64,000 nucleotides of DNA from Acidimicrobiia bacterium. Its GTDB lineage: Bacteria; Actinomycetota; Acidimicrobiia; Spongiisociales; ZC4RG35. A program made the position numbers and the translations under genes. Below, piece by piece: positions 6,795-62,222 of this stretch. Location: NCBI GenBank assembly GCA_965216495.1, contig OZ244163.1:96127-160126 (forward strand), read 5' to 3'. How positions within the stretch are numbered: position 1 is the stretch's first letter; each line of letters starts with the position of its first letter. The notes below the pieces were generated by a model, which ran no database searches, was not told where the DNA came from, and saw only the letters and a program-made list of their open reading frames with translations.

Positions 6795-9332
6795 TTGTCC
6801 GAAAACCCGTTTCGACTGCCGAGGTTCGCTCGGCCGAGCCACTACGACATTCGACTAGATCTCGATCTCGACCACTTCACCTTCAACGGCGCGGTCGGGG
6901 TCGACCTCGTCCTCGACAAGCAGACTGATCACATCGTCATGAACGCCGCCGAGATCGACTTGAAGTCGGCAGCCTTCGCAGACGGCCCCGTCATCTCAGA
7001 GATCACCTATGACTCCGACCTCGAGATGGTGACTTTGAAGCTCGCAGAGCCAGCCGCTCCGGGCAACTATCGGCTGGAGATCGAGCACACCGGAACGATC
7101 AACGATCAGCTCAGGGGGCTCTATCGATCGACGTACACCGACCGTGATGGTGTCGAGCACGTGTTGGCAACGTCGCAATGTCAGGCCACTGATGCCCGAC
7201 GAGTCATTCCGTGCTGGGACGAGCCGGATTTCAAGGCGACCTACCAAACGACCATGGTGGTCGATGCGAGCCTCGAGGCGTACTCGAATACCTCCGAGAT
7301 CGGCCGAAGTGACCTGGGCAACGGTCGTATGGAGGTCAGGTTCGCCAAGACGATGAAGATGTCGACATACCTGCTGGCATTCATTGCAGGGCCCTTCGAG
7401 GCAACCGAGCCGCAAATCGTCAAGGGCACCCCCACCCGCATCATCGTCCCCCGCGGAAACCTCCATCTCACTGATATTGCAATGGAAAACGCGGTCTTCT
7501 GCCTGGAATACCTATCCGACTACTACGACATCCCGTACCCCGGCGACAAGTTGGATCACATCGCCATACCTGACTTTGCTGCCGGAGCGATGGAAAACGT
7601 TGGACTGATCACCTACCGCGACACCTACTTGGTCATCGACCCAGAAACGGCAAGCCAGGGAGAGAAACAGAACAGCCTCGACGTAATCGGACACGAGATC
7701 GCCCACCAGTGGTTCGGCAACTTGGTCACGATGGAATGGTGGGAGGGAGCCTGGCTCAACGAGGCCTTTGCAAGCTTCATGGAGTTGAAGGCGACCGATG
7801 CCATGCGTCCTGAATGGAAACGCTGGTTGGCCTTTGCCAATCTCGAGGTCCCCTGGGCAATGGGAACCGACCAGTTGGCGTCCACCCGACCCATTGAGTT
7901 CGCGGTAACTGCACCCGAAGAGGTCGAGCAGATGTTCGACGCCATCACCTATGGCAAGGGATCTGCCGTGCTCCACATGCTCGACGAGTTCATCGGAGTC
8001 GAGAACTTCAGGCAGGGAGTGGGCAACTATCTGCGCAAACACTCTTACTCGAACACCGTGACGAATCACCTGTGGGAGGGACTGGACGGTGCGTCTGAAT
8101 ACCCGGTGTCCGAGATCATGAACACATGGGTGTATCAGCGCGGGTTCCCCCAGATTGACGTGTCGCGAGTCGACGGAGGAGTCAAGCTCAGCCAACGTCG
8201 GTATCTGGTTATCCCAGACGAGACCGACACCACCATCTGGAAGGTACCGATCCAGCTACGAGGCGTGGCTGATGGCAAGGCGTTCTCGACACGCTTCCTT
8301 CTCGAAGACGACGAGGGAATCGTTGCGCTCGGTGACAACGTCGAGTGGGTCACCGCCAATGCCGGTGGTCATGGGTTCTATCGAACGAGATACGACGAGG
8401 GGACTTTTGCCAGGCTCCTCGACAATGTAGGCGACCTCAATGAAAACGAGCGATACGCCTTGGTTTCGGACACTCTCGGCTTCGTTCGGAGCAGCCAAGT
8501 TCCAGCGGAGGCGTTCCTCGACCTTGTATCCCAATTCGAGAACGAGGAAGAGCAGGCGATCTGGTCAGTCATAATCGGTGGTCTGGGAAATATCGAGCAC
8601 CATGCCCTGGACGAAGCGGCTCGACCCGGATTCCAAGCCTTCGTCTCGTCGCTCGTTGGTCCAGCTCTCGGTCACCTCGGGTGGGACACCAAAGAGGGAG
8701 AGACCGACCTCCAGCGCAAATTGCGCGGTGACCTCATCTCAACGATGGGGAACCTCGCCCGGGACGCGGACACCATCGCCAAGTGTGGCGAGATCGCTCA
8801 GCGACTGATCGCAGGAGAACCAACCGATCCCGAGGTTTCGAACGCCTCACTGGCGGTGTTTGCCCGCAACGGCGGTCCCGAGGAGTACGCGATTTTGTGG
8901 CAGGCCTATAAGGACGCGACAACTCCGCTGGACCAGGCGCGCTATCTCAGGTCAGTAGCAGCAGTGGCCACAGAGCCAGAGGCGTTGTCAACACTCGAAA
9001 AGGTGCTTGCCGGAGATGTCCGGAGTCAGGACTCCTTCTGGGTCTTCGCGCGACTTCTCGCCGGTGATTCAGGGCCCGACGTTTGGGCCGACGCCCGAAC
9101 AAAGTGGGACGATGTTCTCAACTCCATGCCGGGGATGACTCGCACCAGAGTGGTCGAGGGAATACCAGCACTTTCTCAACCAGAAGTGGCGGCCGACGTG
9201 AAGGGATTCTTCGCCGAGCACCCACTACATGAGGCGGCGCGTGTGTTGGAGCAGAAGCTGGAGATGCTCACCGCCAACGTCAAGCTCCGGGAACGCGAGA
9301 CCGATCGAGTCACGGCCTACTTCACCCGCTGA
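6795..9332 (+). CDS. pepN: aminopeptidase N (M1 family metallopeptidase)
   Basis: GAMEN motif and HEIAHQWFGN...E zinc-binding signature; 845 aa. Confidence 0.9.
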   Translation: MSENPFRLPRFARPSHYDIRLDLDLDHFTFNGAVGVDLVLDKQTDHIVMNAAEIDLKSAAFADGPVISEITYDSDLEMVTLKLAEPAAPGNYRLEIEHTGTINDQLRGLYRSTYTDRDGVEHVLATSQCQATDARRVIPCWDEPDFKATYQTTMVVDASLEAYSNTSEIGRSDLGNGRMEVRFAKTMKMSTYLLAFIAGPFEATEPQIVKGTPTRIIVPRGNLHLTDIAMENAVFCLEYLSDYYDIPYPGDKLDHIAIPDFAAGAMENVGLITYRDTYLVIDPETASQGEKQNSLDVIGHEIAHQWFGNLVTMEWWEGAWLNEAFASFMELKATDAMRPEWKRWLAFANLEVPWAMGTDQLASTRPIEFAVTAPEEVEQMFDAITYGKGSAVLHMLDEFIGVENFRQGVGNYLRKHSYSNTVTNHLWEGLDGASEYPVSEIMNTWVYQRGFPQIDVSRVDGGVKLSQRRYLVIPDETDTTIWKVPIQLRGVADGKAFSTRFLLEDDEGIVALGDNVEWVTANAGGHGFYRTRYDEGTFARLLDNVGDLNENERYALVSDTLGFVRSSQVPAEAFLDLVSQFENEEEQAIWSVIIGGLGNIEHHALDEAARPGFQAFVSSLVGPALGHLGWDTKEGETDLQRKLRGDLISTMGNLARDADTIAKCGEIAQRLIAGEPTDPEVSNASLAVFARNGGPEEYAILWQAYKDATTPLDQARYLRSVAAVATEPEALSTLEKVLAGDVRSQDSFWVFARLLAGDSGPDVWADARTKWDDVLNSMPGMTRTRVVEGIPALSQPEVAADVKGFFAEHPLHEAARVLEQKLEMLTANVKLRERETDRVTAYFTR

Positions 9333-9352
9333 CTCTGCCAGCCAAGATAAGA

Positions 9353-9384
9353 AAAGGGCCGGTGCGTTGCACCGGCCCTTTTCA
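9353..9384. terminator. bidirectional hairpin terminator between convergent pepN and rplL
   Basis: Perfect inverted repeat AAAAGGGCCGGTGC-GTT-GCACCGGCCCTTTT. Confidence 0.6.
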
Positions 9385-9403
9385 ATTGGATAGTTGTGCT
9401 GAG

Positions 9404-14417: not shown

Positions 14418-14918
14418 TTATGGAAGGGGTGCTTCGAGTTCAAGATCGAGCATTAGGTCTACCCAGCCCACTAGGCGAGATTTCCACTCTTCGTATTCGA
14501 CAACGGGATTTCCGTCGTACATGAAGTCGCCGACGTCCTCGCGGACCTCATCAGAGAACATCATTGCACCGCGGGTCAAGAAATCGCCAGCGTCGCAATC
14601 TGGCGTCAGGCCGGTCTCTCTCATGTGCAGGTTCGCGAGCTGGCTAACAAGGGTTTCAACATCATATAGGCGGGAGCTCCAGGACTGACCCCGAACTGTC
14701 TCAGGGCTGCCGATGACAGTGAGTACCCTCTCATTCATCTCTGTCCCCCACTCCAAGGCAACTTCCTGACACGTCGTTCCGGTGAATTCAGGCCGGTCGC
14801 TGTCGCAGGCGCCGATCGACCGGGGTAGGCCGTCGCAAGAGTCGGGACGAAGCGCTAACAAGCCAACAACGACGGCACCCACCGCCAAAAAGCTGGCAAC
14901 GATCAGAATCCGTTTCAA
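14418..14918 (-). CDS. secreted/membrane-anchored hypothetical protein
   Basis: N-terminal signal/TM (MKRILIVASFLAVGAVVVGLLAL) and several Cys. No family recognised. Confidence 0.5.
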   Translation of the reverse strand: MKRILIVASFLAVGAVVVGLLALRPDSCDGLPRSIGACDSDRPEFTGTTCQEVALEWGTEMNERVLTVIGSPETVRGQSWSSRLYDVETLVSQLANLHMRETGLTPDCDAGDFLTRGAMMFSDEVREDVGDFMYDGNPVVEYEEWKSRLVGWVDLMLDLELEAPLP

Positions 14919-14990
14919 GCCTTCAACCTTTCGAACAATCCAACCGCCTTGGGTCGGAGGAGCTGCCTCCGACCCAGGACGAACGTAGTC

Positions 14991-15600
14991 TCAACAGTCG
15001 GTTGAGATATAGGTAGCTCCACTAGTCGCGATCGTATAGGGCGCGCTGTAGTCCGACGTAGCCGTATTGGTCTCAATCTTGACTGTGGCCTTGTATCCGG
15101 CGTTGTTCGTGACGTTGAATACGGCCGAGGGGATTAATCGGCTGACCAGAACACTGGCTCCAACGTCGTATCGAGACTCGTATTTGCCCCACGTCTCAAC
15201 GGTTTTGGTTGACGGCGCATTCCATCGAAGTCGGACCTGCATCTCGAATTGGAAGTTCCCATCCGCTTTGCAGTGAGTCCTCGAAGTCGTGCCAGCTGGC
15301 AGAACTATCCAGCCCGTATCATCGCTCCACCAGCAGAGAACGCAGTCTTTCTTGCTGCGCCATTTGTATTCCAGGACACACGATGACAATCCGACCGGAC
15401 AGTCGTTCAAGATCGAGCCCGAGTCGAAGGTGACGCGTGCTGTGGATCCGTTATCTGTCACATGACCAGCCATGTTGTTGTCTCCTCCCACGACCTGCCC
15501 ATCGGCGGCCTGCGCAGGTAGCGTGTTAGCGATGAATAGCGCAGCCAGCGCTATTCCAACGACCAGCATTCTGCGTCCATTCACAAGTGCAAGGCTCATC
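14991..15600 (-). CDS. secreted Cys/Trp-rich hypothetical protein
   Basis: Start taken at MSLALVNGRRMLVVGIALAALFIANTLPAQA (signal peptide); the mature part is Cys/Trp-rich. The ORF-track N-extension was judged unlikely. Confidence 0.5.
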
Positions 15601-15795
15601 TTGTCTTCTCCTTTAGATCGTGCCTTGATGCGTTGGTGAGCTTGCGGGAGGGCTACGCAGGCGTCTATCCCCAGTTGCGGGTAAATCTGTAGCCAGATTG
15701 AGTGATTTGCGTACCCAAAACCGGGCAAGTGTCTTCTTCCAACGCTGCTGATGGTATGGCTAGGGTGGTGTCGACTGAATTCTTAGGGGGTCGAC

Positions 15796-22932: not shown

Positions 22933-23499
22933 TCAGTGGGGAGCGACTACCTCGGCAGGCTGATGGGTGCTCGCGGGCTCGGGAATGAGTTCCAACAGCT
23001 GAGAATTGAGCAGGTAGAACTGGTGTGTGGTCAGCGAACCTTGCCCGTGACGACGGTTGATGTCCTTGAGCATCCGCAACCACCGACGGAAAGCTAGGGA
23101 AGGATCAACGCCCTCGGCATTGAGGCCCTCCTCCACTTCTTTGACCTTGGACTTCAGCTCTTCGAACCGCTCTTCTTCGATAGCTGAGCGGTTGAGTGTT
23201 GAACCGGTTGCCGCCGCCACACCGTTGGATGCAGGAGAGGCGGCAGGTTGGGCGTCGGCGACACCGAGTTCGAGAGCGAAGCGGGACGCGTCATCCACTT
23301 TGAGAATCATCTCCTCACCGTCCACCTTGATGTAGAACTCGCCGTCCTCAGCGCGGGCGACCAATTCTTCGAGCGGCCACTCGGCAATGGTGCGTTCTCC
23401 CGACATGAGGCACAGCCCTTCATCGGAAATGTCGACGACGACGCCAACAGGAAGGCGGGTCTGGCCGGGGATGCGAAGCCTGGCATCAAATGAGGACAT
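22933..23499 (-). CDS. hypothetical cytoplasmic protein (weak PilZ-like RxxxR...DxSxxG N-terminus, coiled-coil C-terminus)
   Basis: Start taken at MSSFDARLRIPGQTRLPVGVVVDISDEGLCL. No confident family assignment. Confidence 0.45.
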   Translation of the reverse strand: MSSFDARLRIPGQTRLPVGVVVDISDEGLCLMSGERTIAEWPLEELVARAEDGEFYIKVDGEEMILKVDDASRFALELGVADAQPAASPASNGVAAATGSTLNRSAIEEERFEELKSKVKEVEEGLNAEGVDPSLAFRRWLRMLKDINRRHGQGSLTTHQFYLLNSQLLELIPEPASTHQPAEVVAPH

Positions 23500-23585
23500 G
23501 TCTCTCTCCTTCACGCCTCTCAGCCAGCATCTAGGTAATCGACAGGGAGACCCCTTGGGATACCGCCATCCAGAGGATCCTTTCA

Positions 23586-23870
23586 ATGCGGTATTGTTCG
23601 GCCGTGCACAAGATCGATATCACCTACTGCGTTCCTTGAAACTATCTCCCCCGCGCCGTGAGCGCGGCCAACGGAATCCTCGCCGACTATCAACACGTCG
23701 TTGAGTCTCTGACCTTCACCACCGGCTCCAAAGGAGTGTTCGACGTAGTGGTCGATGGCGAGCTCCTCTACTCCAAGCACGAGACAGGTCGTCACGCCGA
23801 CGAAGGCGAAGTGGCCCAGCTTTTCGCGGAGAAGTATGGGGAAGGCGTCACCAAGTACGGCGACGGCTAG
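23586..23870 (+). CDS. SelW-like (Rdx family) selenoprotein with in-frame TGA = Sec
   Basis: ATG at 23586 has a GAGGA RBS 9 nt upstream. It reads MRYCSAVHKIDITYCVP-U(TGA 23637-39)-NYLPRAVSAANGILADYQHVVESLTFTTGSKGVFDVVVDGELLYSKHETGRHADEGEV... The CxxU redox motif and the G..G.F(D/E)V.V.G.L..SK motif match the SelW/Rdx fold. The ORF track reported only the 70-aa part after the TGA. Confidence 0.6.
23651..23667 (+). promoter_or_regulatory. putative bacterial SECIS hairpin
   Basis: CCGCGC-CGUGA-GCGCGG is a perfect 6-bp stem with a 5-nt loop containing GU. It begins 12 nt 3' of the UGA, the usual bSECIS spacing. Confidence 0.4.
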
Positions 23871-24033
23871 CAGCCAGGGTCCTCCTTAAACACTCTTCAC
23901 AAACAAGGAGGGCCGATCGACTTCGAGCCGACCAAAAAGCCCTCTCAGCGACCACAGTACGCGCACCCCCATTACAGTGCGTGGCGGAGGGGCAGAAACA
24001 AAATCAAGGAGAGAGAACTTGAGGAAAGTATGG

Positions 24034-24849
24034 ATGACCGCCATTGCGGTCTTCACGATCATGGCGATGGCCATCCCAGTCGGAGCTATCACCAAGGGCG
24101 GAGCGCCCGACAATGGTGAGCACCCGTACGTGGGCCTTATGGTCGCCAAGGACGCCGATGGCAACCCGCTTTGGCGTTGTTCGGGATCGATGATCTCGCC
24201 GACGGTGTACGTAACCGCAGGTCACTGCGTTTCACAGCCGGCAGCGACGGCAACGATCTGGTTCGAGGAGGACGTGCAGTCGCTCGGCTTCGATATCGCA
24301 GATCCCAACATGTACCCGAACGGCGGACCGACCACGGTCACCGGAACGGCACATCCACATCCCAACTATGACGACAACGCCTTCTTCCTATACGACATGG
24401 GAGTGGTCGTCCTGGACGAGCCGGTCTATCTGTCGTCATATGCAACTCTCGCTAGCGAGGGTGCCTTGGACGATTTGGGCAATGGTCGCAACGACGCTGT
24501 TGTCGAAGCAGTCGGCTACGGCTTGCAGAATGCCAACAAGAACCACACCGTCGCTAACCGCGTTCGGATGAAGGCTGACCTCATGGTCGTCGACACCATC
24601 GGTGTTGCCGGTCTCGGGAGACTCGCCAAGTTCTTTGAGGGCAGCGGCTCCTTCATGGTCAGCGGCGACGCAGCCCACGGTGGAACCTGCTTCGGCGACT
24701 CGGGAGGACCGATGCTCATCGGTGACACCGATGTCCTCGTCGGGGTCAACTCCTTCGGACTCAACGGCAACTGCGCCGGAGTCGGAGGCGCCTACCGAAT
24801 CGACCAGGCAGACGACCTTGCGTTCATCAACTCGTTCCTGGGTTCCTAA
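24034..24849 (+). CDS. secreted trypsin-like serine protease (S1 family)
   Basis: Signal peptide, TAGHC (His) and GDSGGP (Ser) catalytic motifs, and AGGAGAGAGAA RBS before the ATG at 24034. Confidence 0.8.
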   Translation: MTAIAVFTIMAMAIPVGAITKGGAPDNGEHPYVGLMVAKDADGNPLWRCSGSMISPTVYVTAGHCVSQPAATATIWFEEDVQSLGFDIADPNMYPNGGPTTVTGTAHPHPNYDDNAFFLYDMGVVVLDEPVYLSSYATLASEGALDDLGNGRNDAVVEAVGYGLQNANKNHTVANRVRMKADLMVVDTIGVAGLGRLAKFFEGSGSFMVSGDAAHGGTCFGDSGGPMLIGDTDVLVGVNSFGLNGNCAGVGGAYRIDQADDLAFINSFLGS

Positions 24850-25521: not shown

Positions 25522-25851
25522 CTAGGAGGTCCGTGGTCTGGCCCGCCACACCACGAGGGCGATCGCCATTGAGACACCCGCCGCGACGTAGGTGATTGGC
25601 TTCTTCCAAGAACGGCTGATCGCCAGGTCTCCTTCGAGCGAAGACATGACCTTCCATTCGAGATCTCTGGGGGCCTCGAAGTGGCCCTCTTTCATGACTG
25701 CCATCTCTTTGGCAGCCCGGCTCATAGCGGCGTAGCGGGCCTGACACTTCAAACAAGTGGCCGAATGACCCCCAAGCACGCCACCTACCGCTGACCCTTC
25801 CACCGCAGCCGTCGCTACGAACGGCACTGCCACTTCGCAAACAACGCTCAC
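25522..25851 (-). CDS. membrane-anchored ZAS-family anti-sigma factor
   Basis: C5...H29SATC33LKC36 zinc-anti-sigma motif (HxxxCxxC) and a C-terminal TM helix. Translationally coupled (ATGA overlap) to the upstream ECF sigma gene. Confidence 0.6.
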   Translation of the reverse strand: MSVVCEVAVPFVATAAVEGSAVGGVLGGHSATCLKCQARYAAMSRAAKEMAVMKEGHFEAPRDLEWKVMSSLEGDLAISRSWKKPITYVAAGVSMAIALVVWRARPRTS

Positions 25852-26426
25852 GCTGACGCCTCGAGATCTCTGGCCAAGCGGGCACGGGCACGATGGAGCC
25901 TCACCTTTGCCGCCGTGACCGATATCCCAGTCACCTCTGCGATCTCTGCGTGTGACCAGCCGTAGACGTCCTTCATGACGACAACCTGCCGCTGAGCCTC
26001 GGGTAGCCGATCCAATGCCGACCGAAGGCGGCCCCGAAGTTCCATGATTTCACCGGCGAACTCGGGACTCGTCGTGTCCTCTGGAGCGGGCAACTCAAAG
26101 TGGTCATCAATTGGGACCGCACTATGTCGCTTGGCCCGCTGTTTATGGGTCCACGCCGTATTGACCGTTATCCGATAAAGCCACGTCGACAACTTCGCAT
26201 CTCCCCGGAACTTGGGTAGGGCCTTCCAGGCGCGTATCAGGGACTCCTGTGCGATATCTGCCGCTAGATGCGGATCTCTGACCAATCGTCGAGCCAACGT
26301 ATAGACCTCGTCCTGATGCTCCCGGACCAGTGCTGCGAAAGCGGCACGGTCACCCTGTTGGGCCCTCTCAATGAGGCGGGCCTCTCTGTCAGGTTCGACC
26401 CGCTTCTTGTCGCCTGGGTTACTCAT
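25848..26426 (-). CDS. ECF-type RNA polymerase sigma factor
   Basis: Sigma-70 region 2 (YTLARRLVRDPHLAADIAQESLIRAW) and region 4 (VVVMKDVYGWSHAEIAEVTGISVTAAKVRLHRAR). The start was taken at MSNPGDKK. Confidence 0.8.
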   Translation of the reverse strand: MSNPGDKKRVEPDREARLIERAQQGDRAAFAALVREHQDEVYTLARRLVRDPHLAADIAQESLIRAWKALPKFRGDAKLSTWLYRITVNTAWTHKQRAKRHSAVPIDDHFELPAPEDTTSPEFAGEIMELRGRLRSALDRLPEAQRQVVVMKDVYGWSHAEIAEVTGISVTAAKVRLHRARARLARDLEASA

Positions 26427-27219
26427 CGGCAAGCTCGACTCTGGCCGTGAGACACTCGACCTCACCAGCTGCCAGCGTGACGGTCACCTGACCTTCTGAT
26501 TGCGCCTGCACCACGTCAACCGGAACGGCTGGCAGCAGAGGCGCTCGAAATCGTATCTTGGCACTAGTCAGCGGAGCGTCTCCAGGGCGCCTTTCAGCGG
26601 CCAACCTGAGAGCCCAACTCGCCTGAAGTAGCCCGTGGGCCACCACCCCCGGAAGCCCTGCTTCGACGGCGGCGGTGTGATCCCAGTGGATTGGGTTCCA
26701 GTCACGAGTCGCCGCCGCGTAACGGACCAGGTCTGCCCTCGAAGCAGACAGTTGGCCTGTCGCAGGGTCACCATCATCAGTCGCCGGCGGTTCTTCCCTC
26801 TCAGCGTCAGATTTGGTTGCGGTCTCGGCACCAGCGGCGAGGAACCCGGCGGAGCCAGAAGCGACCAACCGCCCCTCGCAATGCACCTCCATCTCGAATG
26901 TGATGAAGTAGACGCCTCCTCGCTCACGGGCACGTGTTACTTCGCCCGACACGGCCAGCTCCGAACCAACGAGCAACGGTTCAGTCCACTGAAACGATTG
27001 GTCGCCATGGATCACCGAATGCTCGTAGAGCAGTCCCAACAGTTCTGGCGCAACAGCAAACAACGCCACCGAAAGGAACCCCGGAGGCGCTGCGTTCACC
27101 CATCGACCGCGATCATCGCCAGTCGCCACCAAAAAATCCCTGACACCATCTGGGGATACGTAAAGAGGCTCCGGGCCAAAGGTTCGACCGGCCAGGTCGG
27201 ACAGATCCATCGAGTCCAC
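26419..27219 (-). CDS. MaoC-like (R)-specific hydratase/dehydratase, fused double-hotdog (HadA/HadB-like)
   Basis: Two hotdog-fold halves in 266 aa. The position next to rpmG mirrors the mycobacterial rpmG2-hadABC-secE arrangement. Confidence 0.6.
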   Translation of the reverse strand: MDSMDLSDLAGRTFGPEPLYVSPDGVRDFLVATGDDRGRWVNAAPPGFLSVALFAVAPELLGLLYEHSVIHGDQSFQWTEPLLVGSELAVSGEVTRARERGGVYFITFEMEVHCEGRLVASGSAGFLAAGAETATKSDAEREEPPATDDGDPATGQLSASRADLVRYAAATRDWNPIHWDHTAAVEAGLPGVVAHGLLQASWALRLAAERRPGDAPLTSAKIRFRAPLLPAVPVDVVQAQSEGQVTVTLAAGEVECLTARVELADE

Positions 27220-28022: not shown

Positions 28023-29213
28023 CTACTTGTTGATTTTGGTGACTCGTCCGGCGCCTACGGTGCGGCCACCCTCACGGATAGCGAACCGGAGACCCTCGTC
28101 CATAGCGATCGGAGCGATCAACTCGACAGTCATCTCGGTGTTATCACCAGGCATCACCATCTGAGTCCCCTCAGGCAACTGGATCGACCCGGTCACATCA
28201 GTAGTCCGGAAATAAAACTGAGGCCGATAACCAGGGAAAAACGGGTTATGACGACCGCCCTCTTCCTTAGTCAACACATAAACCTGAGCTTCGAAATCAG
28301 TATGAGGAGTAATACTCCCGGGCTTGGCCAAAACCTGGCCACGCTCAACCTCTTCCTTACCAATACCCCGAAGAAGAACCCCTACGTTGTCACCAGCACG
28401 ACCCTCATCCAACAACTTCCGGAACATCTCAATCCCAGTAGCCACCGTCTTCTGAGTGTCACGGATCCCCACAATCTCAACTTCCTCGTTGACATTCAAA
28501 ATCCCCTGCTCAATACGACCCGTAACCACAGTCCCACGACCAGTAATCGAGAACACATCCTCGATCGACATCAGAAAATCCTTCTCCGTGTCACGCTCAG
28601 GATCCGGAATAAACGAATCAACCGACTCCATCAACTCCATCACCCTGTCCTGAGCATCAGAATCGCCCTCCAACGCAGCCAAAGCAGAACCACGAACCAC
28701 AGGAACATCATCCCCAGGAAACTCATACTCAGTCAGAAGATCCCGAACCTCCAACTCAACCAAATCCAACAACTCCTCATCATCAACAAGATCAGCCTTA
28801 TTAATGAAAACCACAATCGAAGGAACCCCAACCTGACGAGCCAACAACACATGCTCACGAGTCTGAGGCATAGGACCATCATCGCCACCAACCACCAAAA
28901 TCGCCCCATCAACCTGAGCAGCACCCGTAATCATGTTCTTGATGTAATCAGCATGACCCGGCATATCCACATGCGCATAATGACGAGCCTCCGTCTCATA
29001 CTCCACATGAGAAATCGAAATCGTGATACCACGCTCCCGCTCCTCAGGAGCCTTATCAATATTCTCAAACTCAGTGAACTGATTCTCACCACCAACACGC
29101 TCAGCAAGCGTCTTAGTAATAGCCGCCGTCAACGTCGTCTTCCCATGATCAATATGACCCATCGTCCCCACATTCACATGCGGCTTCGTCCGCTCAAACT
29201 TGGCCTTGGCCAT
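28023..29213 (-). CDS. tuf: elongation factor Tu
   Basis: [32 protein letters not shown]...; full-length 396 aa EF-Tu. Confidence 0.97.
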
Positions 29214-29267
29214 TCTCGGTTCCTTCCTTGCCTTCCTGTCCTTGCCGGCCCCTGCCGGCTCGATATG

Positions 29268-29341
29268 TAGCGGCGGGCAGACTCGAACTGCCGACCTCTC
29301 GATTATGAGTCGAGCGCTCTCACCAACTGAGCTACGCCGCC
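29268..29341 (-). tRNA. tRNA-Met (anticodon CAT)
   Basis: Cloverleaf on the minus strand: GGCGGCG acceptor, CTCATAA anticodon loop, GGTTCGAGTCC T-loop. Confidence 0.8.
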
Positions 29342-29370
29342 TCAGTGCAGAAGGGTATTCCCATCTGCAG

Positions 29371-29443
29371 AGCCCCGTTCCGGATTTGAACCGAAGACCT
29401 CTTCCTTACCATGGAAGCGCTCTACCAACTGAGCTAACGGGGC
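29371..29443 (-). tRNA. tRNA-Thr (anticodon GGT)
   Basis: GCCCCGT acceptor, anticodon loop ATGGTAA, T-loop GGTTCAAATCC. Confidence 0.8.
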
Positions 29444-29469
29444 TGGATTGTGGTGACGCTAGGCGTCCG

Positions 29470-29552
29470 TGCCGGGAGAAGGATTCGAACCTCCGTAGGC
29501 GTATGCCGGCAGATTTACAGTCTGCTTCCTTTGGCCGCTCGGACATCCCGGC
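29470..29552 (-). tRNA. tRNA-Tyr (anticodon GTA), long variable arm
   Basis: Anticodon stem-loop GCAGA-CTGTAAA-TCTGC, class II long extra arm, T-loop GGTTCGAATCC. Confidence 0.8.
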
Positions 29553-37125: not shown

Positions 37126-38763
<1,638 letters not shown>

Positions 38764-38771
38764 TCAGCTCC

Positions 38772-39062
38772 TCAGTTGACGATTGCCAGAATGTCGCGCT
38801 CGCTGAGGACCAGGTATTCACCGGTGTCGAGCTTTACCTCGGTGCCGGCGAACTTCGAGTAGAGAACCTTGTCCCCTACCGAAACGTCCATAGCGATACG
38901 ATCGCCGTCGTCGTCCCGGGCGCCCGGTCCAACAGCGATGACTTCTCCTACTTGGGGCTTCTCCTTGGCGGTGTCGGGAATGACCAGACCTGAGGGGGTG
39001 CGGGACTCCGCATCCTCGGTTGGCGAGACCACAACACGATCGCCGAGAGGTTGAAGCTTCAT
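38772..39062 (-). CDS. groS: co-chaperonin GroES
   Basis: [12 protein letters not shown]... The start was taken at the internal Met (96 aa). Confidence 0.95.
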
Positions 39063-39120
39063 ACGTAGCTCCTCCTTGAGCATCTACGTTCGTGCCTTAC
39101 CCGTCGTTGCTTGACGACGG

Positions 39121-39243: not shown

Positions 39244-39882
39244 TCAAGCCGGCCAAGACTGAATCAGCCAGAACACCCCTACCGCAATGGCTCCCAAGCC
39301 AAACACCGTCATGACCGCCCTGAGGACCCGGTCGCCACGATCAGCCACGAGTTTGCCGAGAATCCAGGCAAAACCAGCCATCGCAGCCACCGCAGCTATC
39401 AGGTAGAACGCCAAATACGCCACCGCCTGCCCGGTAGGGAGCCCCAACGCTGGAAGAACACCAAACAGGTGCCCTGTGCCCGCCATACCGTGAAGAACAC
39501 CGACGCCGAGGGGAGCGTGGCGATGAGAACCACCGTGGGCGTGGACGTGGGCGTGGACATCACCATCGTGGTCATGGGTGTGGGTATGAATCTGCAGCGT
39601 TCGGGCACGCCAGATGGCCCAAAGCCCAACACCGATCAGAAGAAATCCGACAGTGAACTCCGCCCATTCCGAGATGGATTCCATGTCGATCAAGCCGCGA
39701 AGAGCCAGCCCCACCCCCGCCACGATCCCGGTTCCGATGCCGTGCCCGAGGCCCCATTTCGCCCCGGTGAATCCGGCCCGCTTGGGGTCCTCGACCGCCA
39801 GGGGCGCAAGAGCAGCCAGATGGTCGACACCAGCCACCACATGCAAGGCCCCGGCCGCCAGGCCAGCGAGTGCTTCGATCAC
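39244..39882 (-). CDS. HupE/UreJ-like Ni/Co transporter with His-rich loop
   Basis: Duplicated G.LH...G.DHL / G.LHG.AGTGHL motifs in TM helices and a central [24 protein letters not shown] loop. Confidence 0.5.
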
Positions 39883-40880
39883 AGCATCATCGAGGGGTCA
39901 ACGGACTCGGCCCAGTCTGAGAGTCGGCCCTGCGATAGCCAGTGAGCTCCAGCCACGCCAATCATGGCGGCGTTGTCGGTACACAGCACGGGGTCGGGAA
40001 GAGCCAACTGCACTCCTCTTTTGTCGGCCTCTTCGGCAAACCGATATCGAATTCGACGGTTTGCCAGAACCCCTCCTCCACCACCCACGACTCGGGCGTC
40101 GGTGGCATCGACGGCGGCGAAAGTCTTATCGACCAGCACATCGACAATCGCCTCTTGGATCGAGGCTGCAACGTCAGCGCGAGGCGCGAGGTCTCCGGCG
40201 GCATGGGCCTTCTCAAGATAGCGAATAACCGACGTCTTTAGGCCCGAGAAGGAGAAGTGGTAGGGCTTGTCAGGCAGAGCCCTTGGGAAACGGACAGCAA
40301 GCGGATCGCCGCCTTCGGATTCCTTATCGATCGCCGGGCCACCGGGGAAACCAAGACCCATCACCCGAGCCAGCTTGTCGAAAGCCTCGCCAGCGGCATC
40401 GTCGATAGTGTGCCCCAGAGTCTCGTACTCGCCCCAATCCGACACATGGACGATCTGCGAATGACCCCCTGAAGCCAAGAGCACCACCGCTGGTGGGGCG
40501 AACTCTTCGAACTGAAGGCGGGGCGCCATCAGGTGGCCCTCCATGTGATCGACTCCCACGAACGGAATCTGACGTGCCCACGCGGTCGCTTTGGCAAAGG
40601 AATGACCAACGAGAAGTGCGCCTATTAGGCCGGGACCCGCCGTCGCTGCCACGCCGTCTAGATCAAAGGGATGCACTCTGGCTTCTGTCAGAGCCTGGTG
40701 GGTGAGATGTCGAATGGCCTCTACATGGGCCCTGGCGGCGACTTCGGGAACAACGCCACCAAACCGTGCGTGCAGCTCCACCTGCGAAGAAAGGACGTTG
40801 GAAAGCGCCTCGGTGCCGCGCACCACAGCGACAGCGGTTTCGTCGCAACTTGTCTCGAACGCCAAAACGGTTGGCTTCAT
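39879..40880 (-). CDS. tsaD: tRNA N6-adenosine threonylcarbamoyltransferase TsaD
   Basis: [14 protein letters not shown]...; Kae1/Gcp family. The start was taken at MKPTVLAF. Confidence 0.9.
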
Positions 40881-41338
40881 CGCCGGACCCCCACGCTTTG
40901 ATCGATGTCGTGTTTCCACATGATCAGGGCGTCGTCATCTCCGTAGTAGCTAGGACGCATCCCGACTGGAGCAAGCCCAAATGAGGCGTATAAGCGACGC
41001 GCCGCTTCGTTCTTGCTTCGCACCTCGAGGGTGAGATGTTTGGCACCGGATCGCACTGATTCAGATATCAGAGACTCCAGCAGCTTCGAGGCCACCCCTT
41101 TCCGGCGACGTCCTGGTGCCACCAGGAGATTGGTGACATGCGCCTCGTCATCCACAAGCATCACACCACCAAACCCAGCGAGAGCCTCGTCGATGGCGGC
41201 GAGATAGATTCGGTCGTCCCGGCCCAACTCGTTCTCGAAGACGTCTCTTGACCATGGGCGTTGCTGTTCGGCCGACTCGAGTTGAGCCACGAGATCAAGG
41301 TCATCTCTCTGCATCGTTCTGACAACCAAGGTCTTCAT
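40877..41338 (-). CDS. rimI: ribosomal-protein-alanine N-acetyltransferase
   Basis: GNAT fold between tsaB and tsaD; conserved operon context. Confidence 0.75.
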
Positions 41339-42039
41339 CCCCAAGGACCAGCCTTTCGGATCTTGTCCCAATTGATGGTGACATCCGCATCGCGCAGATA
41401 CATAGGTCGAATGTCGTCGGGAGCCGGGTACTCGTCCCGCTGATACTTGCCAGCGCCGATTTCGGCGAGGGCGACTGCGTAGGGGTACCGGGGACGAGCA
41501 GACTTGGCGCGAGCGATGCCTCGAAAGAAGCCTTCGCCCAGAGCAGCCACTTCACCCACAACCAGGCTGTGCTCGACGGTGGCTTCGAGAACGGCCCTGA
41601 ACCGTTCGGGGGTCATCAGCTCAGCCGAAGACTCTTTGACCACTCCACCTGGAACCGGCCGATAGCGAGCAACAGCAACATCACCGCGTCGGACGTCGAC
41701 CACCGACCAGATCATTCGGTGACCAGTCTTGGCTTCGAGCGCTAGCGCGTCCAGTGACGTCGCTGGAATTATTGGGATGCCGAATGCTGCGGCCAGACCC
41801 TGAGCTGTGGCGAGCCCAACTCTGATGCCGGTGTAGAGACCGGGGCCGATGTCGACTACCACCGCATCAAGGTCCTCTGGATTCCAACCAACCTGGTGGA
41901 AGCTGAAGTCAATTGCTGGGACCAGAAAGCTGGCATGGCCCCGGCGATCGATCCGAGACGCTGCAGCCAGGGTGCGGCCGTCCTCAACCACGGCAACCGA
42001 AGAGCCAGGAGTCGCGGTCTCTATCGCCAGCAGCTTCAC
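41335..42039 (-). CDS. tsaB: tRNA threonylcarbamoyladenosine biosynthesis protein TsaB
   Basis: VKLLAIETATPGSSVAVV... YeaZ-like; probable GTG start. The N-extension in the ORF track was judged spurious. Confidence 0.7.
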   Translation of the reverse strand: MKLLAIETATPGSSVAVVEDGRTLAAASRIDRRGHASFLVPAIDFSFHQVGWNPEDLDAVVVDIGPGLYTGIRVGLATAQGLAAAFGIPIIPATSLDALALEAKTGHRMIWSVVDVRRGDVAVARYRPVPGGVVKESSAELMTPERFRAVLEATVEHSLVVGEVAALGEGFFRGIARAKSARPRYPYAVALAEIGAGKYQRDEYPAPDDIRPMYLRDADVTINWDKIRKAGPWG

Positions 42040-42488
42040 AACAAATCCTCGAGAGAACGTCGGCACCAGTCCCCGGACGGGACGAAGGAGACAAGACGAG
42101 AACCGTCCTCGCTGACTTCTAGCTCCACCCGCAGATGGTCTTGGGGGACCATTGCATCCACGGCCTCGCCCCATTCGATGACAACCACCCCTTCAACGCC
42201 GGCGTCAAAGACCTCAAGATCCTCGAACTCATTGAGTGACCCGAGCCGGTAGACGTCGAGATGGACCACCGGCATGAATCCGGTGCGGTACTGACGCATG
42301 AGCACAAAGGACGGGCTGAGGACCGGTTCTTCGACACCGAGTCCAATGGCGAGACCTCTGGTGAAGACTGTCTTTCCGACGCCAAGACCTCCGGCGAGCA
42401 CTACTACGTCGCCTGGACGCAGACTGGCAGCAAGCCGACCGCCGAGGGCTTCGGTGTCGGCCTCCGCCGGACAACGAACCTCCATCAT
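42036..42488 (-). CDS. tsaE: tRNA threonylcarbamoyladenosine biosynthesis protein TsaE
   Basis: P-loop VVLAGGLGVGKTVFTRG, YjeE family; 150 aa. Confidence 0.8.
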   Translation of the reverse strand: MMEVRCPAEADTEALGGRLAASLRPGDVVVLAGGLGVGKTVFTRGLAIGLGVEEPVLSPSFVLMRQYRTGFMPVVHLDVYRLGSLNEFEDLEVFDAGVEGVVVIEWGEAVDAMVPQDHLRVELEVSEDGSRLVSFVPSGDWCRRSLEDLL

Positions 42489-43906: not shown

Positions 43907-44995
43907 TCAGAGGTGATCCACGACCGATTGATATCGCCGTGGCACCCGCGGACCGATCGAGCAAACCACCTCGTAGGAGATTGTATTGAGCGCGCCAGCC
44001 CAGTCGTCGGCGGTGACCTCCGCAGAACCTTGGCTACCGAGTAACACGACCTCATCACCGGGTTGGACATCATCATCACCAACATCAATCACGATTTGAT
44101 CCATCGTGACGGTTCCGGCCAACGGGTACTTGTTGCCGCCTATCAGCGCAACGCCTCCGCTCGTCAAGCCGCGTGCGAACCCATCCGCGTAGCCCACAGG
44201 AGCCGTGGCCATATTGGAGTCGCTGTCCAACTCGCGGACACGTCCATAGCTGGGGCGCGCTCCCGCCGACAATCGCTGAACGTGCGAAACATGGGTGATC
44301 ACCCGCATTGCCGGTTCGAGATCGACTACTGACCGAGTTTCCTCGCACGGGTGCAAACCGTAGGTTCCGAGGCCAATCCGGCACATATCTCGCCGGGCTT
44401 CGGGGAACAGGATGGCGCCGGCGGTGTTCGCTGTGTGACTGAGTGGTGCCGCCACTCCGAGGGCGTCGAATAGCTCTAGTTGAAGCCTCGTGAAGTCGGG
44501 GTCTTCATCAGCAACCGAAAAGTGAGTCCAGACAGCCTCCAGAGTGACCAGTTCGGACTTCTCAATCTGGCGGGCCAGATCGCGTGCAACGTCGGGAGTT
44601 GCCCCAACTCGGTGCATTCCTGTGTCCACCTTCAAATGTGCGTCGGCGCGGATGCCGGAATCGATCAAAGCCTCGACGAAGCCAAGCGTGTAGACAGTTG
44701 GCTTGAGGTCCCACTTTTCCAGCACGGGAAGACTCTCCGGACCAGGTTCGGACAGAAGGAGAATCGGGGCTTGGATCCCGGCCTCTCGAAGACGAACACC
44801 TTCCTCCACAAGCGCAACAGCGAGATGAGTTGCGCCGTGAGCCAACGCCGCCGAAGCGACAGGCACATCGCCGTGGCCGTATCCATCGGCCTTGACGACG
44901 GCGCAGAATGCAGCTGGCTTGATCAGTTCGGCCAACCGGGAAACGTTGTTCCCGATGGCGCCCAGGTTGATCTCGGCGTAGGTAGGCCTCACCAC
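43907..44995 (-). CDS. alr: alanine racemase
   Basis: AVVKADGYGHG PLP-lysine motif; 362 aa. Confidence 0.9.
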   Translation of the reverse strand: MVRPTYAEINLGAIGNNVSRLAELIKPAAFCAVVKADGYGHGDVPVASAALAHGATHLAVALVEEGVRLREAGIQAPILLLSEPGPESLPVLEKWDLKPTVYTLGFVEALIDSGIRADAHLKVDTGMHRVGATPDVARDLARQIEKSELVTLEAVWTHFSVADEDPDFTRLQLELFDALGVAAPLSHTANTAGAILFPEARRDMCRIGLGTYGLHPCEETRSVVDLEPAMRVITHVSHVQRLSAGARPSYGRVRELDSDSNMATAPVGYADGFARGLTSGGVALIGGNKYPLAGTVTMDQIVIDVGDDDVQPGDEVVLLGSQGSAEVTADDWAGALNTISYEVVCSIGPRVPRRYQSVVDHL

Positions 44996-48751: not shown

Positions 48752-48755
48752 CAAC

Positions 48756-51217: not shown

Positions 51218-51270
51218 CTCAGGAGCCTTGCCGAGCCTTCAAGCAGTGAAGCCGGGCCGGGTTTGACACC

Positions 51271-52452: not shown

Positions 52453-52465
52453 GCCACAAACTGCG

Positions 52466-55963: not shown

Positions 55964-56598
55964 CCGAGCCGCTCTCGGAGCTTCTCAACTGCCTGAAGGG
56001 CGAGACGGTCAGGCTCAGCACCAGTATCGAGATCCAACTGCGGTAAGAAATCAAGAGTCTTCCAGAGCCCAATCTCCGTTCTGATCTCGGAGATGCTCAA
56101 CTCAGCTTTGCGATGAGCAATCAGTTCCGGACCTGCTGATAGACGAATCAAGAGATCTGGCTTCGGCGCGAACCTGACTCCTACCTTGGCAAGCCAGGAC
56201 GGTCCGTAAAACCGAAGACTGTATGGCTGGCCTACATAGCCGTACACCCATCGGTCACCCACGACGATTGCCCCCCTTCGCACCCGCGGCCTGATGTGCT
56301 TCCAATAGGCGAACCAAGAGCGGATGACATTGCGCAGAATCCGAGCCACACCCATGACTGGGTTGCCGTTCCTAGAAGGTTTTGGTTGGGGCACCTGCGT
56401 CTCGTGCACCACCCCAGGGTCAGAGATCATCGAGTTCTCAGAAGTTGGGAGGAAGTGAAAGTAGCTGACCGGGCCGTCCCACGCCCTCATCAGCGAAGTC
56501 GCCAACGTGGTCTTACCCACTCCATCTGGGCCCACGACAACCACGAAACCCCCAGGACAAGTTCGGCTATCCCGCCGCTCCCACGTGTCAACTTCCAT
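55957..56598 (-). CDS. P-loop NTPase (nucleoside/nucleotide-kinase-like fold)
   Basis: Walker A VVVGPDGVGKTTLATSL; 213 aa. Confidence 0.45.
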   Translation of the reverse strand: MEVDTWERRDSRTCPGGFVVVVGPDGVGKTTLATSLMRAWDGPVSYFHFLPTSENSMISDPGVVHETQVPQPKPSRNGNPVMGVARILRNVIRSWFAYWKHIRPRVRRGAIVVGDRWVYGYVGQPYSLRFYGPSWLAKVGVRFAPKPDLLIRLSAGPELIAHRKAELSISEIRTEIGLWKTLDFLPQLDLDTGAEPDRLALQAVEKLRERLGC

Positions 56599-56663
56599 CG
56601 CGACCGGAGCCTACCGGCGGGCCTGCTCTACGGCCTCGCGCCAACCAATCGTCGAACTTAGGC

Positions 56664-58109: not shown

Positions 58110-58214
58110 GTCAGGAACCTCGCGAGTTAGGGGCAGATCAAAGGTCCGAAAGGGGACATACGACTAAGTCGGTCGGTATTTATAGGTCTTAAGGACTTTT
58201 TTCCAAGAGGCAAT

Positions 58215-61051: not shown

Positions 61052-61075
61052 CAGAACCGACCCGAAGGAAGAAGC

Positions 61076-62212: not shown

Positions 62213-62222
62213 TGATCAGGCT

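What the first reader, a model, noticed from the sequence alone, without database searches (positions are those of the whole stretch)
23586..23870. Missed selenoprotein: SelW/Rdx-family gene with in-frame TGA in a CxxU motif and a SECIS-like hairpin 12 nt downstream
The ORF track starts this gene after the TGA, giving 70 aa. Extending upstream gives ATG(23586)-RYCSAVHKIDITYCVP-TGA-NYLPRA..., which recreates the beta1-CxxU-alpha1 redox motif of SelW/SelT/Rdx proteins. Immediately 3' is a perfect 6-bp stem, CCGCGC-CGUGA-GCGCGG, starting 12 nt after the UGA with a GU-containing loop. This matches bacterial SECIS placement. It implies a Sec-decoding organism and a redox protein placed near an ECF sigma / ZAS (thiol-sensing) anti-sigma pair.
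Basis: partly seen in the sequence, partly recalled or inferred. Interest (0 to 1): 0.65.

Follow-up and report, generated by a model that had tools for sequence, protein, structure and literature searches.

The report
Mis-annotated SelW-like selenoprotein gene
This is a small redox-protein gene whose in-frame TGA almost certainly encodes selenocysteine, so gene callers cut it to 70 residues; the catch is correct, but it belongs to the most common bacterial selenoprotein family already described.

Summary
Window 23586-23870 (+) reads through one in-frame TGA (23637-23639). It encodes a complete Rdx/SelW-like domain with the motif C15-V-P-U18. With U written as C it scores 62 bits on Pfam PF10262, against 33 bits for the annotated 70-aa ORF. 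All 80 related genomic loci, mostly Acidimicrobiia MAGs, have TGA at this codon, and the coding sequence is conserved on both sides of it. The hairpin CCGCGC-CGUGA-GCGCGG (23651-23667) meets every constraint of the published bacterial SECIS model. It shows compensatory changes in 5 of 6 pairs. Synonymous variation collapses at its apex (0-0.4 bits, against 1.1-1.9 bits elsewhere in the gene). TGA is an ordinary stop for other genes in the window. Not verified: selA, selB, selC and selD are absent from the 64-kb window and the rest of the genome could not be read. The start codon is ambiguous (ATG 23586, or GTG 23604, where relatives start). The proximity to the ECF sigma/anti-sigma pair is collinearity seen only in the closest relative sampled at ±10 kb, not a family-wide association. 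SelW-like CxxU proteins have been described since 2004-2008 as the most abundant prokaryotic selenoprotein family in marine metagenomes. This is a new member of a known kind, of modest interest.

The parts
23586..23870 (+). Full SelW-like/Rdx selenoprotein CDS: 94 codons including Sec18, stop TAG 23868-23870
   Evidence: Searches give the sequence and translation. Pfam PF10262 scores 62 bits over residues 9-79, profile positions 1-71 of 74. TIGR02174 scores 47.9 bits against a cut-off of 34.2.
23572..23577 (+). Shine-Dalgarno-like AGAGGA, 8 nt upstream of ATG 23586
   Evidence: Read directly from the sequence. It supports ATG 23586 as a usable start. This is an inference.
23604..23606 (+). Alternative start GTG, giving M-H-K-I-D-I-T-Y-C... 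and an 88-codon product
   Evidence: In L001, L002, L004, L005 and L013 an ATG lies at exactly this homologous position, and in L013 an in-frame stop closes the frame immediately upstream.
23628..23639 (+). Redox motif C-V-P-U: TGC GTT CCT TGA, with the Sec codon at 23637-23639
   Evidence: It aligns with YCTQC of the solved Cys homologue 3DEX and YCTQC of 2FA8. TGA is present in 81 of 81 sequences.
23651..23667 (+). SECIS upper stem-loop: 6-bp stem CCGCGC/GCGCGG with apical loop CGUGA
   Evidence: -10.2 kcal/mol. 83.6% of cells are paired across 68 distinct sequences, 5 of 6 pairs show compensatory change, and 0 of 500 shuffles reach the covariation score. Synonymous sites of codons +5 to +8 are nearly invariant. 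It meets the bSECIS model constraints quoted in PMC13188914.
23631..23677 (+). Possible extended SECIS with a lower helix that includes the UG of the UGA; weakly supported
   Evidence: It appears in the minimum-free-energy fold. The lower helices proposed from relatives are only 35-100% paired per pair and differ between lineages.
23658..23870 (+). The 70-aa ORF from GTG, as gene callers and public databases annotate it; an artefact of reading the TGA as a stop
   Evidence: P0001 is 70 aa and matches at 99%. It matches only Rdx profile positions 21-71, at 33 bits.

Best explanation
The locus encodes one small (88-94 residue) thioredoxin-fold redox protein of the Rdx/SelW-like family. Its active-site motif is Cys15-Val-Pro-Sec18. 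During translation the UGA at 23637-23639 is decoded as selenocysteine. The inferred route is that the elongation factor SelB, carrying Sec-tRNA(Sec) and GTP, binds the apical part of the mRNA hairpin at 23651-23667 (loop C-G-U-G-A on a G/C stem, 11 nt after the UGA) and delivers Sec when the UGA reaches the ribosomal A site. The inferred function of the protein is thiol/selenol oxidoreduction. Sec18, at the start of helix alpha-1, would be the reactive nucleophile. It would cycle through a selenenylsulfide with Cys15, re-reduced by a cellular thiol system. Shown here: the reading frame continues across the TGA, the gene belongs to the family, the TGA and the hairpin are conserved, and selection acts on the hairpin at the RNA level. 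Inferred: SelB-dependent decoding, selenium incorporation, and the redox chemistry and its substrate.
For: Extending across the TGA raises the Pfam Rdx score from 33.1 to 62 bits and fills profile positions 1-20. NCBIfam TIGR02174 'CXXU_selWTH' passes its cut-off. Solved Cys-type homologues align from residue 7-9 with their CxxC opposite CxxU (3DEX E = 2e-8, 2FA8 E = 1.4e-5). The search patterns used to fetch the 80 loci encoded Cys at this position, so they did not favour TGA. Even so, all 80 loci carry TGA there, with I-x-I-T-Y-C-V-P conserved upstream and synonymous variation in the Val and Pro codons. Across 68 distinct sequences the hairpin is 83.6% paired, with compensatory C:G to U:A and G:C to A:U changes in 5 of 6 pairs and 0 of 500 shuffles reaching the covariation score. 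Third-position entropy falls to 0.38, 0.0, 0.11 and 0.32 bits at codons +5 to +8. It is 1.1-1.9 bits at the other four-fold degenerate sites of the gene except the Pro codon at -1 (0.99 bits). The hairpin satisfies the published bSECIS constraints: 5-nt loop, G followed by U at loop positions 2-3, 6-bp stem, 17-nt spacing, -10.2 kcal/mol. More distant SelW-like genes (L073-L080) carry a different hairpin at the same place, most of them with a G in the first two loop positions (for example GGUCU). TGA ends Pfam-verified genes elsewhere in the window, including 6PGD, M1 peptidase, TsaD, alanine racemase and the ECF sigma factor, so there is no genome-wide reassignment. Some JGI records already name homologues 'selenoprotein W-related protein' or 'predicted Rdx family selenoprotein'. 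A preprint reports selA, selB, selC and selD in all 84 complete Actinomarina genomes; Actinomarinales is placed in the class Acidimicrobiia from my own knowledge.
Against: No selA, selB, selD or tRNA-Sec lies in the 64-kb window or in any of the 86 fetched loci. The Sec-decoding capacity of this genome is therefore inferred, not shown. No Rfam SECIS model matches, although the Actinomarina preprint describes bacterial SECIS as poorly represented in Rfam. The local fold energy is not exceptional against shuffles (z = -0.82). The hairpin overlaps the conserved peptide R-A-V-S-A, so part of its conservation is protein-level. There is no experimental evidence of selenium incorporation. The physiological substrate of any bacterial SelW-like protein is unknown.
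Confidence: 0.9

Rival explanations
1. The annotated 70-aa ORF (GTG 23658-23870) is the real gene. The TGA is an ordinary stop, and the upstream similarity to the Rdx N-terminus is fortuitous or a relic.
For: Gene callers produce this model here and in nearly all of the 120 listed database relatives, which are 67-78 aa. The truncated ORF still passes the Pfam threshold at 33 bits.
Against: The truncated product lacks strand beta-1 and the whole CxxU/CxxC active site (profile positions 1-20). The upstream codons are conserved at the amino-acid level with synonymous variation in all relatives. The GTG at 23658 is the Val codon inside the hairpin loop and is conserved as part of R-A-V-S. Most relatives carry an in-frame ATG or GTG 8-10 codons upstream of the TGA.
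Confidence: 0.03
2. It is a pseudogene: a Cys codon (TGC or TGT) of a CxxC Rdx protein mutated to TGA in this genome.
For: TGY to TGA is a single-base change, and Cys-type Rdx proteins exist (3DEX, 2FA8).
Against: TGA is present in 81 of 81 sequences, whose protein identity to the window ranges from 81% down to about 45%, with the frame intact on both sides. A structured element under RNA-level selection follows the TGA.
Confidence: 0.01
3. The UGA is read through, but not as selenocysteine. Possibilities are near-cognate insertion of Cys or Trp, or another recoding signal for which the hairpin is a read-through stimulator.
For: The Sec machinery was not found in the accessible sequence.
Against: The codon aligns exactly with a redox Cys of a family whose Sec forms are documented across bacteria and eukaryotes. 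The hairpin fits the SelB-type SECIS model in spacing and loop G-U. Sec machinery is reported as universal in one order, Actinomarinales. TGA terminates other genes in the window.
Confidence: 0.05

Closest known systems
Prokaryotic SelW-like (SELENOW-like) selenoproteins, Pfam PF10262 Rdx / TIGR02174 CXXU_selWTH
   Same: Same domain, with both profiles above their cut-offs. Same CxxU motif, a single Sec, a small size of about 75-95 aa, and a SECIS inside the coding region just after the UGA. Like the family in general, the Sec form dominates over the Cys form: 427 Sec against 56 Cys in GOS, 48 against 7 in the Sargasso Sea, and here 81 of 81 Sec.
   Different: This Acidimicrobiia clade has its own sequence signature: YCVPU(D/N)Y...RAVSAA, then YSKHETGRHA..GEVL. 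Its SECIS apex is nearly invariant (GCC-GUG on a CGCGC stem). The SelW-like genes of other phyla (L073-L080) instead carry loops of other sequences (for example GGUCU) on longer stems. It scores below the cut-off of the Campylobacter-type equivalog NF041051 (77.8 against 88).
Cys-type bacterial Rdx proteins with solved structures: SAV_2001 (3DEX), Atu0228 (2FA8), and 2OKA, 2OBK, 2OJL, 2P0G
   Same: They are homologous over residues 7-79. The motif I-x-Y-C-x-x-C-x-(W/Y)-L-x-R-A aligns with I-T-Y-C-V-P-U-N-Y-L-P-R-A.
   Different: They have Cys where this protein has Sec, so they need no SECIS. Sequence identity is modest (E = 2e-8 to 0.04).
Escherichia coli fdhF-type bacterial SECIS, and the bSECIS consensus model
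   Same: A stem-loop within the ORF, and a small apical loop with G followed by U. The spacing to the loop is 17 nt, within the model's 16-37 nt. The upper stem-loop starts 11 nt after the UGA; from my own knowledge, this is the distance required for the minimal fdhF element. The model constraints are quoted from PMC13188914.
   Different: There is no sequence similarity to fdhF. The conserved stem is short (4-6 bp). No conserved bulged U is seen in the window's version; one sub-clade may have a bulge. SelB binding is untested.
Eukaryotic selenoprotein W (SELENOW)
   Same: Same Pfam family and CxxU motif.
   Different: The eukaryotic SECIS lies in the 3'UTR and has a different structure (PMC1088965 figure 7 legend; PMC13188914). 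The window protein's own PDB matches include human C17orf37 (2LJK, E = 1.3e-4) but no SelW chain at E up to 1.

Membership tests
Rdx / SelT-SelW-SelH family (PF10262, TIGR02174) | Profile match above the curated threshold over the whole domain | tested here: met
   PF10262 scores 62 bits against a cut-off of 22.6, over profile positions 1-71 of 74. TIGR02174 scores 47.9 against 34.2, over positions 1-71 of 74.
Rdx / SelT-SelW-SelH family (PF10262, TIGR02174) | CxxC/CxxU motif near the N-terminus, aligned with the redox Cys pair of characterised or solved members | tested here: met
   YCVPU aligns with YCTQC of 3DEX and 2FA8.
Rdx / SelT-SelW-SelH family (PF10262, TIGR02174) | Thioredoxin-like fold with the motif between beta-1 and alpha-1 | not tested
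The fold is inferred only from sequence homology to solved Rdx structures.
Rdx / SelT-SelW-SelH family (PF10262, TIGR02174) | Redox activity of the CxxU pair | not testable with these tools
   This needs biochemistry.
NF041051 SelTWH_Campy (equivalog) | Score at or above the equivalog cut-off of 88 bits | tested here: not met
   77.8 bits. The gene is related to this equivalog group but is not a member of it.
Bacterial selenoprotein gene (Sec-UGA plus bSECIS) | In-frame UGA aligned with Cys in homologues, with coding conservation on both sides | tested here: met
   TGA is present in 81 of 81 sequences.
Bacterial selenoprotein gene (Sec-UGA plus bSECIS) | bSECIS model: 3-9 nt apical loop, 4-16 bp upper stem, G in the first two loop positions, 16-37 nt from the UGA to the loop, MFE at or below -7.5 kcal/mol (PMC13188914) | tested here: met
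   The loop is CGUGA (5 nt, G-U at positions 2-3). The stem is 6 bp, the spacing 17 nt and the energy -10.2 kcal/mol. Under a strict contiguous-stem test, 61 of 78 relatives pass. The others have an interrupted stem or a loop predicted without an early G.
Bacterial selenoprotein gene (Sec-UGA plus bSECIS) | Evolutionary support for the RNA structure beyond coding constraint | tested here: met
   Covariation is exceeded by 0 of 500 shuffles and 5 of 6 pairs show compensatory change. Synonymous-site entropy is 0-0.4 bits at the apex against 1.1-1.9 bits elsewhere. The lower helices are not well supported.
Bacterial selenoprotein gene (Sec-UGA plus bSECIS) | Sec machinery (selA, selB, selC/tRNA-Sec, selD) in the same genome | not testable with these tools
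   None lies in the 64-kb window or in the 86 related loci. The rest of the 2.3-Mb source contig could not be fetched. The only indirect support is the report of machinery in all 84 complete Actinomarina genomes.
Bacterial selenoprotein gene (Sec-UGA plus bSECIS) | Selenium actually incorporated | not testable with these tools
   This needs 75Se labelling or mass spectrometry.
Rfam SECIS families | Covariance-model match | tested here: not met
   There is no SECIS hit at the gathering threshold or at E up to 10. This carries little weight, because the preprint read describes bacterial SECIS as poorly represented in Rfam.

The most novel reading that the evidence does not exclude
This is a clade-specific SelW-like subfamily that is Sec-only in this sample (81 of 81 sequences, no Cys form seen) and is spread across Acidimicrobiia. 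It has an unusually invariant SECIS apex. Public annotation truncates it to about 70 aa almost everywhere. If it is the main selenoprotein that keeps the Sec-decoding trait alive in this abundant aquatic actinobacterial class, then selenium use in the class is widely under-counted. It may also correspond to the unassigned 78-aa family reported as the most common selenoprotein in Actinomarina.
Probability: 0.3. Interest if true: 0.4.

Novelty: new member of a known kind. Interest (0 to 1): 0.25.

Why it matters
The annotation should be corrected: the real product is 88-94 residues with a CxxU active site, not a 70-residue fragment lacking it. The gene also marks its host, an Acidimicrobiia-like bacterium, as a probable selenocysteine user. 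The same truncation affects nearly all of the 120 best database relatives listed, so selenoprotein counts for this class are under-estimated by standard pipelines. The conserved hairpin (CGCGC-CGUGA-GCGCG, 11 nt after the UGA) gives a clean, lineage-specific SECIS signature that could be used to search Acidimicrobiia genomes for further selenoproteins. None of this changes what is known about Sec decoding or about the SelW-like family, whose substrate remains unknown.

Tried and rejected
- **Rfam:** searched at the gathering threshold on the whole window and at E up to 10 on 23560-23760. There was no SECIS or tRNA-Sec hit.
- **tRNA-Sec:** ARAGORN on the window and all loci found none.
- **Sec machinery in the window:** Pfam scans of 40 window ORFs, including all 27 of at least 340 aa, found no SelA, SelB or SelD. 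The 396-aa GTPase at 28023-29213 is EF-Tu, not SelB: TIGR00475 scores 187 bits against a cut-off of 242.
- **Source contig:** exact look-up of the source contig through P0001 found nothing on record. The cluster look-up gave no accession or name.
- **Other selenoprotein genes in the window:** I scanned all in-frame TGAs with a Cys within three residues (C/U motifs). The only striking case was 14993 (-), with a -30 kcal/mol hairpin. I rejected it because it is a normal stop between a secreted protein and a membrane protein.
- **Conserved partner gene:** none of the window's neighbours recurs within 3 kb in the 80 loci, apart from one weak case in L006. ORF clustering found only clade-specific neighbours, and the spurious ORFs these sequences yield made it noisy.
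- **Extended lower SECIS helices:** they are only partly paired and differ between lineages, so I do not claim them.

Full report
**Observation.** ATG is at 23586 and the Cys codon TGC at 23628-23630. The in-frame TGA is at 23637-23639 and the TAG stop at 23868-23870. The translation is MRYCSAVHKIDITYCVP*NYLPRAVSAANGILADYQHVVESLTFTTGSKGVFDVVVDGELLYSKHETGRHADEGEVAQLFAEKYGEGVTKYGDG*. The mechanical ORF list contains only the 70-aa ORF from GTG 23658. The public protein collection holds exactly that truncation (P0001, 70 aa, from a 2,316,925-bp contig). The hairpin is CCGCGC (23651-23656), CGUGA, GCGCGG (23662-23667). Eleven nucleotides separate the UGA from the stem and 17 separate it from the loop. 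A 71-nt fold of this region is not unusual for its composition (z = -0.82). A single sequence would therefore not prove anything, and the case rests on comparison.

**Protein family.**
- With U written as C, the 94-residue product matches Pfam Rdx (PF10262) at 62 bits over profile positions 1-71 of 74. The 70-aa ORF reaches 33 bits and covers only positions 21-71. The 17 codons upstream of the TGA thus supply the missing N-terminal third of the domain.
- NCBIfam TIGR02174, named 'CXXU_selWTH', passes its cut-off at 47.9 bits against 34.2. The Campylobacter-type equivalog NF041051 does not (77.8 against 88).
- Solved Cys-type homologues align from residue 7-9 onward. In SAV_2001 (3DEX, E = 2e-8) and Atu0228 (2FA8), IEYCTQCRWLPRA and IRYCTQCNWLLRA lie opposite ITYCVPUNYLPRA. 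The second Cys of their CxxC is opposite the TGA.

**Relatives.**
- A scan of one genome per species returned 80 loci, most labelled Acidimicrobiia, Acidimicrobiales or Ilumatobacteraceae MAGs. A few came from other phyla. The peptide patterns used for that scan encoded Cys at the critical position, so they did not favour TGA.
- Every one of the 80 loci nevertheless has TGA there (78 shown, the remaining three). I-x-I-T-Y-C-V-P is conserved upstream and (D/N)-Y-x-x-R-A-V-S-A downstream.
- The Val and Pro codons just before the TGA vary synonymously, at 1.81 and 0.99 bits at the third position. That is the signature of a translated region.
- The 120 best protein-database hits are nearly all 67-78 aa, so the same truncation has been made nearly everywhere. 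Some JGI records nonetheless name them 'selenoprotein W-related protein' or 'predicted Rdx family selenoprotein'.

**SECIS.**
- I aligned 68 distinct Acidimicrobiia-type sequences from 6 nt before the TGA to 48 nt after it (A1). In this alignment the six-pair hairpin is 83.6% paired.
- Five of its six pairs show compensatory changes, for example CGCGC/GCGCG to CGUGC/GCACG or CGCAC/GUGCG. None of 500 column shuffles reaches the observed covariation score. Sliding the 3' arm by 1-3 columns lowers pairing to 14-69%.
- The hairpin codes for the conserved peptide R-A-V-S-A, so I compared synonymous sites along the gene. Third-position entropy is 0.38 bits (Arg), 0.00 (Ala, GCC in 68 of 68), 0.11 (Val, GUG in 70 of 71) and 0.32 (Ser) at codons +5 to +8. 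It is 1.1-1.9 bits at the other four-fold sites of conserved residues except the Pro codon at -1 (0.99 bits). This shows selection on the RNA itself, centred on the loop and the closing pairs.
- A 2026 review gives the bacterial SECIS consensus as follows: 3-9 nt loop, 4-16 bp upper stem, a G in the first two loop positions usually followed by G or U, 16-37 nt from the UGA to the loop, and MFE at or below -7.5 kcal/mol (PMC13188914).
- The window's element meets all of these: 5-nt loop C-G-U-G-A, 6 bp, 17 nt spacing, -10.2 kcal/mol.
- SelW-like genes from Deltaproteobacteria, Spirochaetes and other phyla (L073-L080) have an unrelated hairpin at the same position, most of them with a G in the first two loop positions (for example GGUCU). 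The element is therefore maintained by function rather than by descent of sequence.
- Lower helices that would extend the structure down to the UGA are only partly paired and differ between sub-clades, so I do not claim them.
- Rfam has no matching model. This is weak negative evidence, because the preprint read describes bacterial SECIS as poorly represented in Rfam.

**Alternatives.**
- Genome-wide reassignment of TGA is excluded. TGA ends about half of the ORFs, including genes with full-length Pfam matches: 6-phosphogluconate dehydrogenase, M1 aminopeptidase, TsaD, alanine racemase and the ECF sigma factor.
- A pseudogene is excluded by 81 of 81 conservation across relatives whose protein identity to the window ranges from 81% down to about 45%.
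- The 70-aa model would lack strand beta-1 and the whole active site. Its GTG start is simply the Val codon inside the SECIS loop.

**What could not be shown.**
- The Sec machinery is not in the window. There is no tRNA-Sec and no SelA, SelB or SelD among the 40 ORFs scanned, which include all 27 of at least 340 aa. The GTPase at 28023-29213 is EF-Tu.
- The machinery is also absent from the 86 related loci, including 10-kb flanks in six of them.
- Indirect support comes from a 2026 preprint reporting selA, selB, selC and selD in all 84 complete genomes of Actinomarina, together with about five predicted selenoproteins per genome. Actinomarinales is placed in the class Acidimicrobiia from my own knowledge.

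**Start codon.** ATG 23586 has AGAGGA 8 nt upstream. In L001, L002, L004, L005 and L013, however, an ATG sits exactly where the window has GTG 23604 (M-H-K-I-D/E-I-...). In L013 an in-frame stop lies immediately upstream of it. The product is therefore 94 or 88 residues. Either way it contains the Sec codon.

**Context.**
- The gene is monocistronic in appearance. It is flanked by a divergent 188-aa gene of unknown family (22933-23499, -) and a trypsin-like protease gene (23977-24849, +).
- The ECF sigma factor (25848-26465, -) and the 109-aa protein with an H-x3-C-x2-C motif (25522-25851, -) are real (sequence). They lie 1.65 kb away on the other strand, beyond the protease and a fasciclin-domain gene.
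- In the closest relative (L081, 81% identity), the block of anti-sigma, ECF sigma, MaoC, EF-Tu and tRNAs is collinear with the window. The genes between it and the Rdx gene are different there: FtsX/ABC transporter and PadR.
- In another clade the Rdx gene sits divergently beside the ATP synthase operon. No window neighbour recurs within 3 kb in the 80 loci, apart from one weak case.
- The proximity is best read as local collinearity between close relatives, not as a functional unit.

**Mechanism.**
- Shown: one continuous reading frame across a UGA, followed by a selected hairpin that fits the SelB-type SECIS model.
- Inferred from established knowledge of bacterial Sec decoding (summarised in PMC13188914): SelB with GTP and Sec-tRNA(Sec) binds the hairpin apex and delivers Sec to the A-site UGA.
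- Inferred from family knowledge: Sec18, at the start of helix alpha-1, acts as the nucleophile and forms a selenenylsulfide with Cys15. Supporting sources are the Rdx fold of 3DEX/2FA8, the CxxU motif taken as a candidate redox motif, and the glutathione interaction reported for SelW (PMC1088965). The substrate is unknown for every bacterial member.

**Comparison with what is known.**
- They were also the most abundant in the GOS data, with 427 Sec and 56 Cys forms, and were the most widespread family together with SelD (PMC2398784).
- They occur in sequenced Deltaproteobacteria and Clostridia, and in Symbiobacterium, which that paper lists under Actinobacteria (PMC1794560).
- They are listed among 'predicted with high confidence' prokaryotic selenoproteins in the 2026 review, under PF10262 with motif CxxU.
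- Mis-annotation of selenoprotein genes by gene callers that read the UGA as a stop is a recognised problem. The finding is therefore a correct identification of a new member of a known kind.
- What is mildly new is the clade-specific picture. The Acidimicrobiia subfamily is Sec-only in this sample, has its own nearly invariant SECIS apex, and is truncated in nearly all of the database entries listed.

**Verdict.** Confidence that this is a genuine SelW-like selenoprotein gene is about 0.9. Interest is 0.25.

Noticed in passing
window 25522-25851 (-) and 25848-26465 (-): An ECF sigma factor (Pfam Sigma70_r2/r4_2/ECF) overlaps by 4 nt a 109-aa ORF with no family hit. That ORF carries H-S-A-T-C-L-K-C (HxxxCxxC, the zinc anti-sigma motif) and a C-terminal hydrophobic segment. 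The pair, followed by MaoC, EF-Tu and tRNAs, is collinear in the closest relative L081 (76% and 58% identity).
   Followed up: partly
window 28023-29213 (-), 29267-29552 (-): EF-Tu (TIGR00485, 723 bits) lies directly downstream of a tRNA-Tyr/Thr/Met cluster. A spurious 340-aa ORF on the opposite strand (28248-29270 +) covers the same DNA and has no family hit.
   Followed up: yes
window 14418-15728 (-): Two same-frame ORFs are separated by a single TGA (14991-14993), which is preceded by Cys and followed by a -30 kcal/mol hairpin. It looked like a second Sec candidate. The first ORF, however, ends a secreted-looking protein and the second begins with a membrane segment, so I judged it an ordinary stop with a strong hairpin. 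I ran no homology check.
   Followed up: partly
window 47144-63979: A large cell-envelope polysaccharide cluster. It holds three GT4 glycosyltransferases, a Wzy_C O-antigen-ligase-like protein and a weak MurJ-like flippase. It also holds a beta-helix/NosD protein, a P-loop (AAA_31/ParA) protein, a DegT-type aminotransferase and two GNAT/FemAB-like acetyltransferases.
   Followed up: no
window 22933-23499 (-): A divergently transcribed 188-aa protein with no Pfam or NCBIfam hit, with AAGGAGAG before its ATG. Its only homologue among the 80 loci (L006, 44% over 84 aa) also lies next to that genome's SelW-like gene.
   Followed up: partly
L083-L086 (JGI metagenome contigs): In another Acidimicrobiia-type clade the SelW-like gene sits divergently next to the complete F1Fo ATP synthase operon and is often followed by a NIPSNAP-domain gene.
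   Followed up: no
window 37126-39083 (-), 39879-42174 (-), 43907-46353 (-): A housekeeping block. It holds GroEL with a 103-aa ORF upstream (probably GroES, not scanned), TsaD with a second TsaD-family (TsaB-like) protein, alanine racemase, and NAD(P)H-hydrate dehydratase/epimerase.
   Followed up: no
window 9330-9390 (+): A perfect stem of about 15 bp (-31 kcal/mol in a 60-nt fold) lies directly after the TGA stop of the M1 aminopeptidase gene (6795-9332). It is probably a terminator or a repeat element.
   Followed up: no
L021, L022, L024, L025, L029, L031, L037 and others (Ilumatobacteraceae-type loci), about 15-40 nt after the TGA: In this sub-clade the codon after the stem is GCU rather than GCG, so the predicted SECIS has a single bulged U in the 3' arm. 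It also has a longer lower helix (GAGAC...GAUCUC) that reaches the UGA, an architecture different from the window's.
   Followed up: partly
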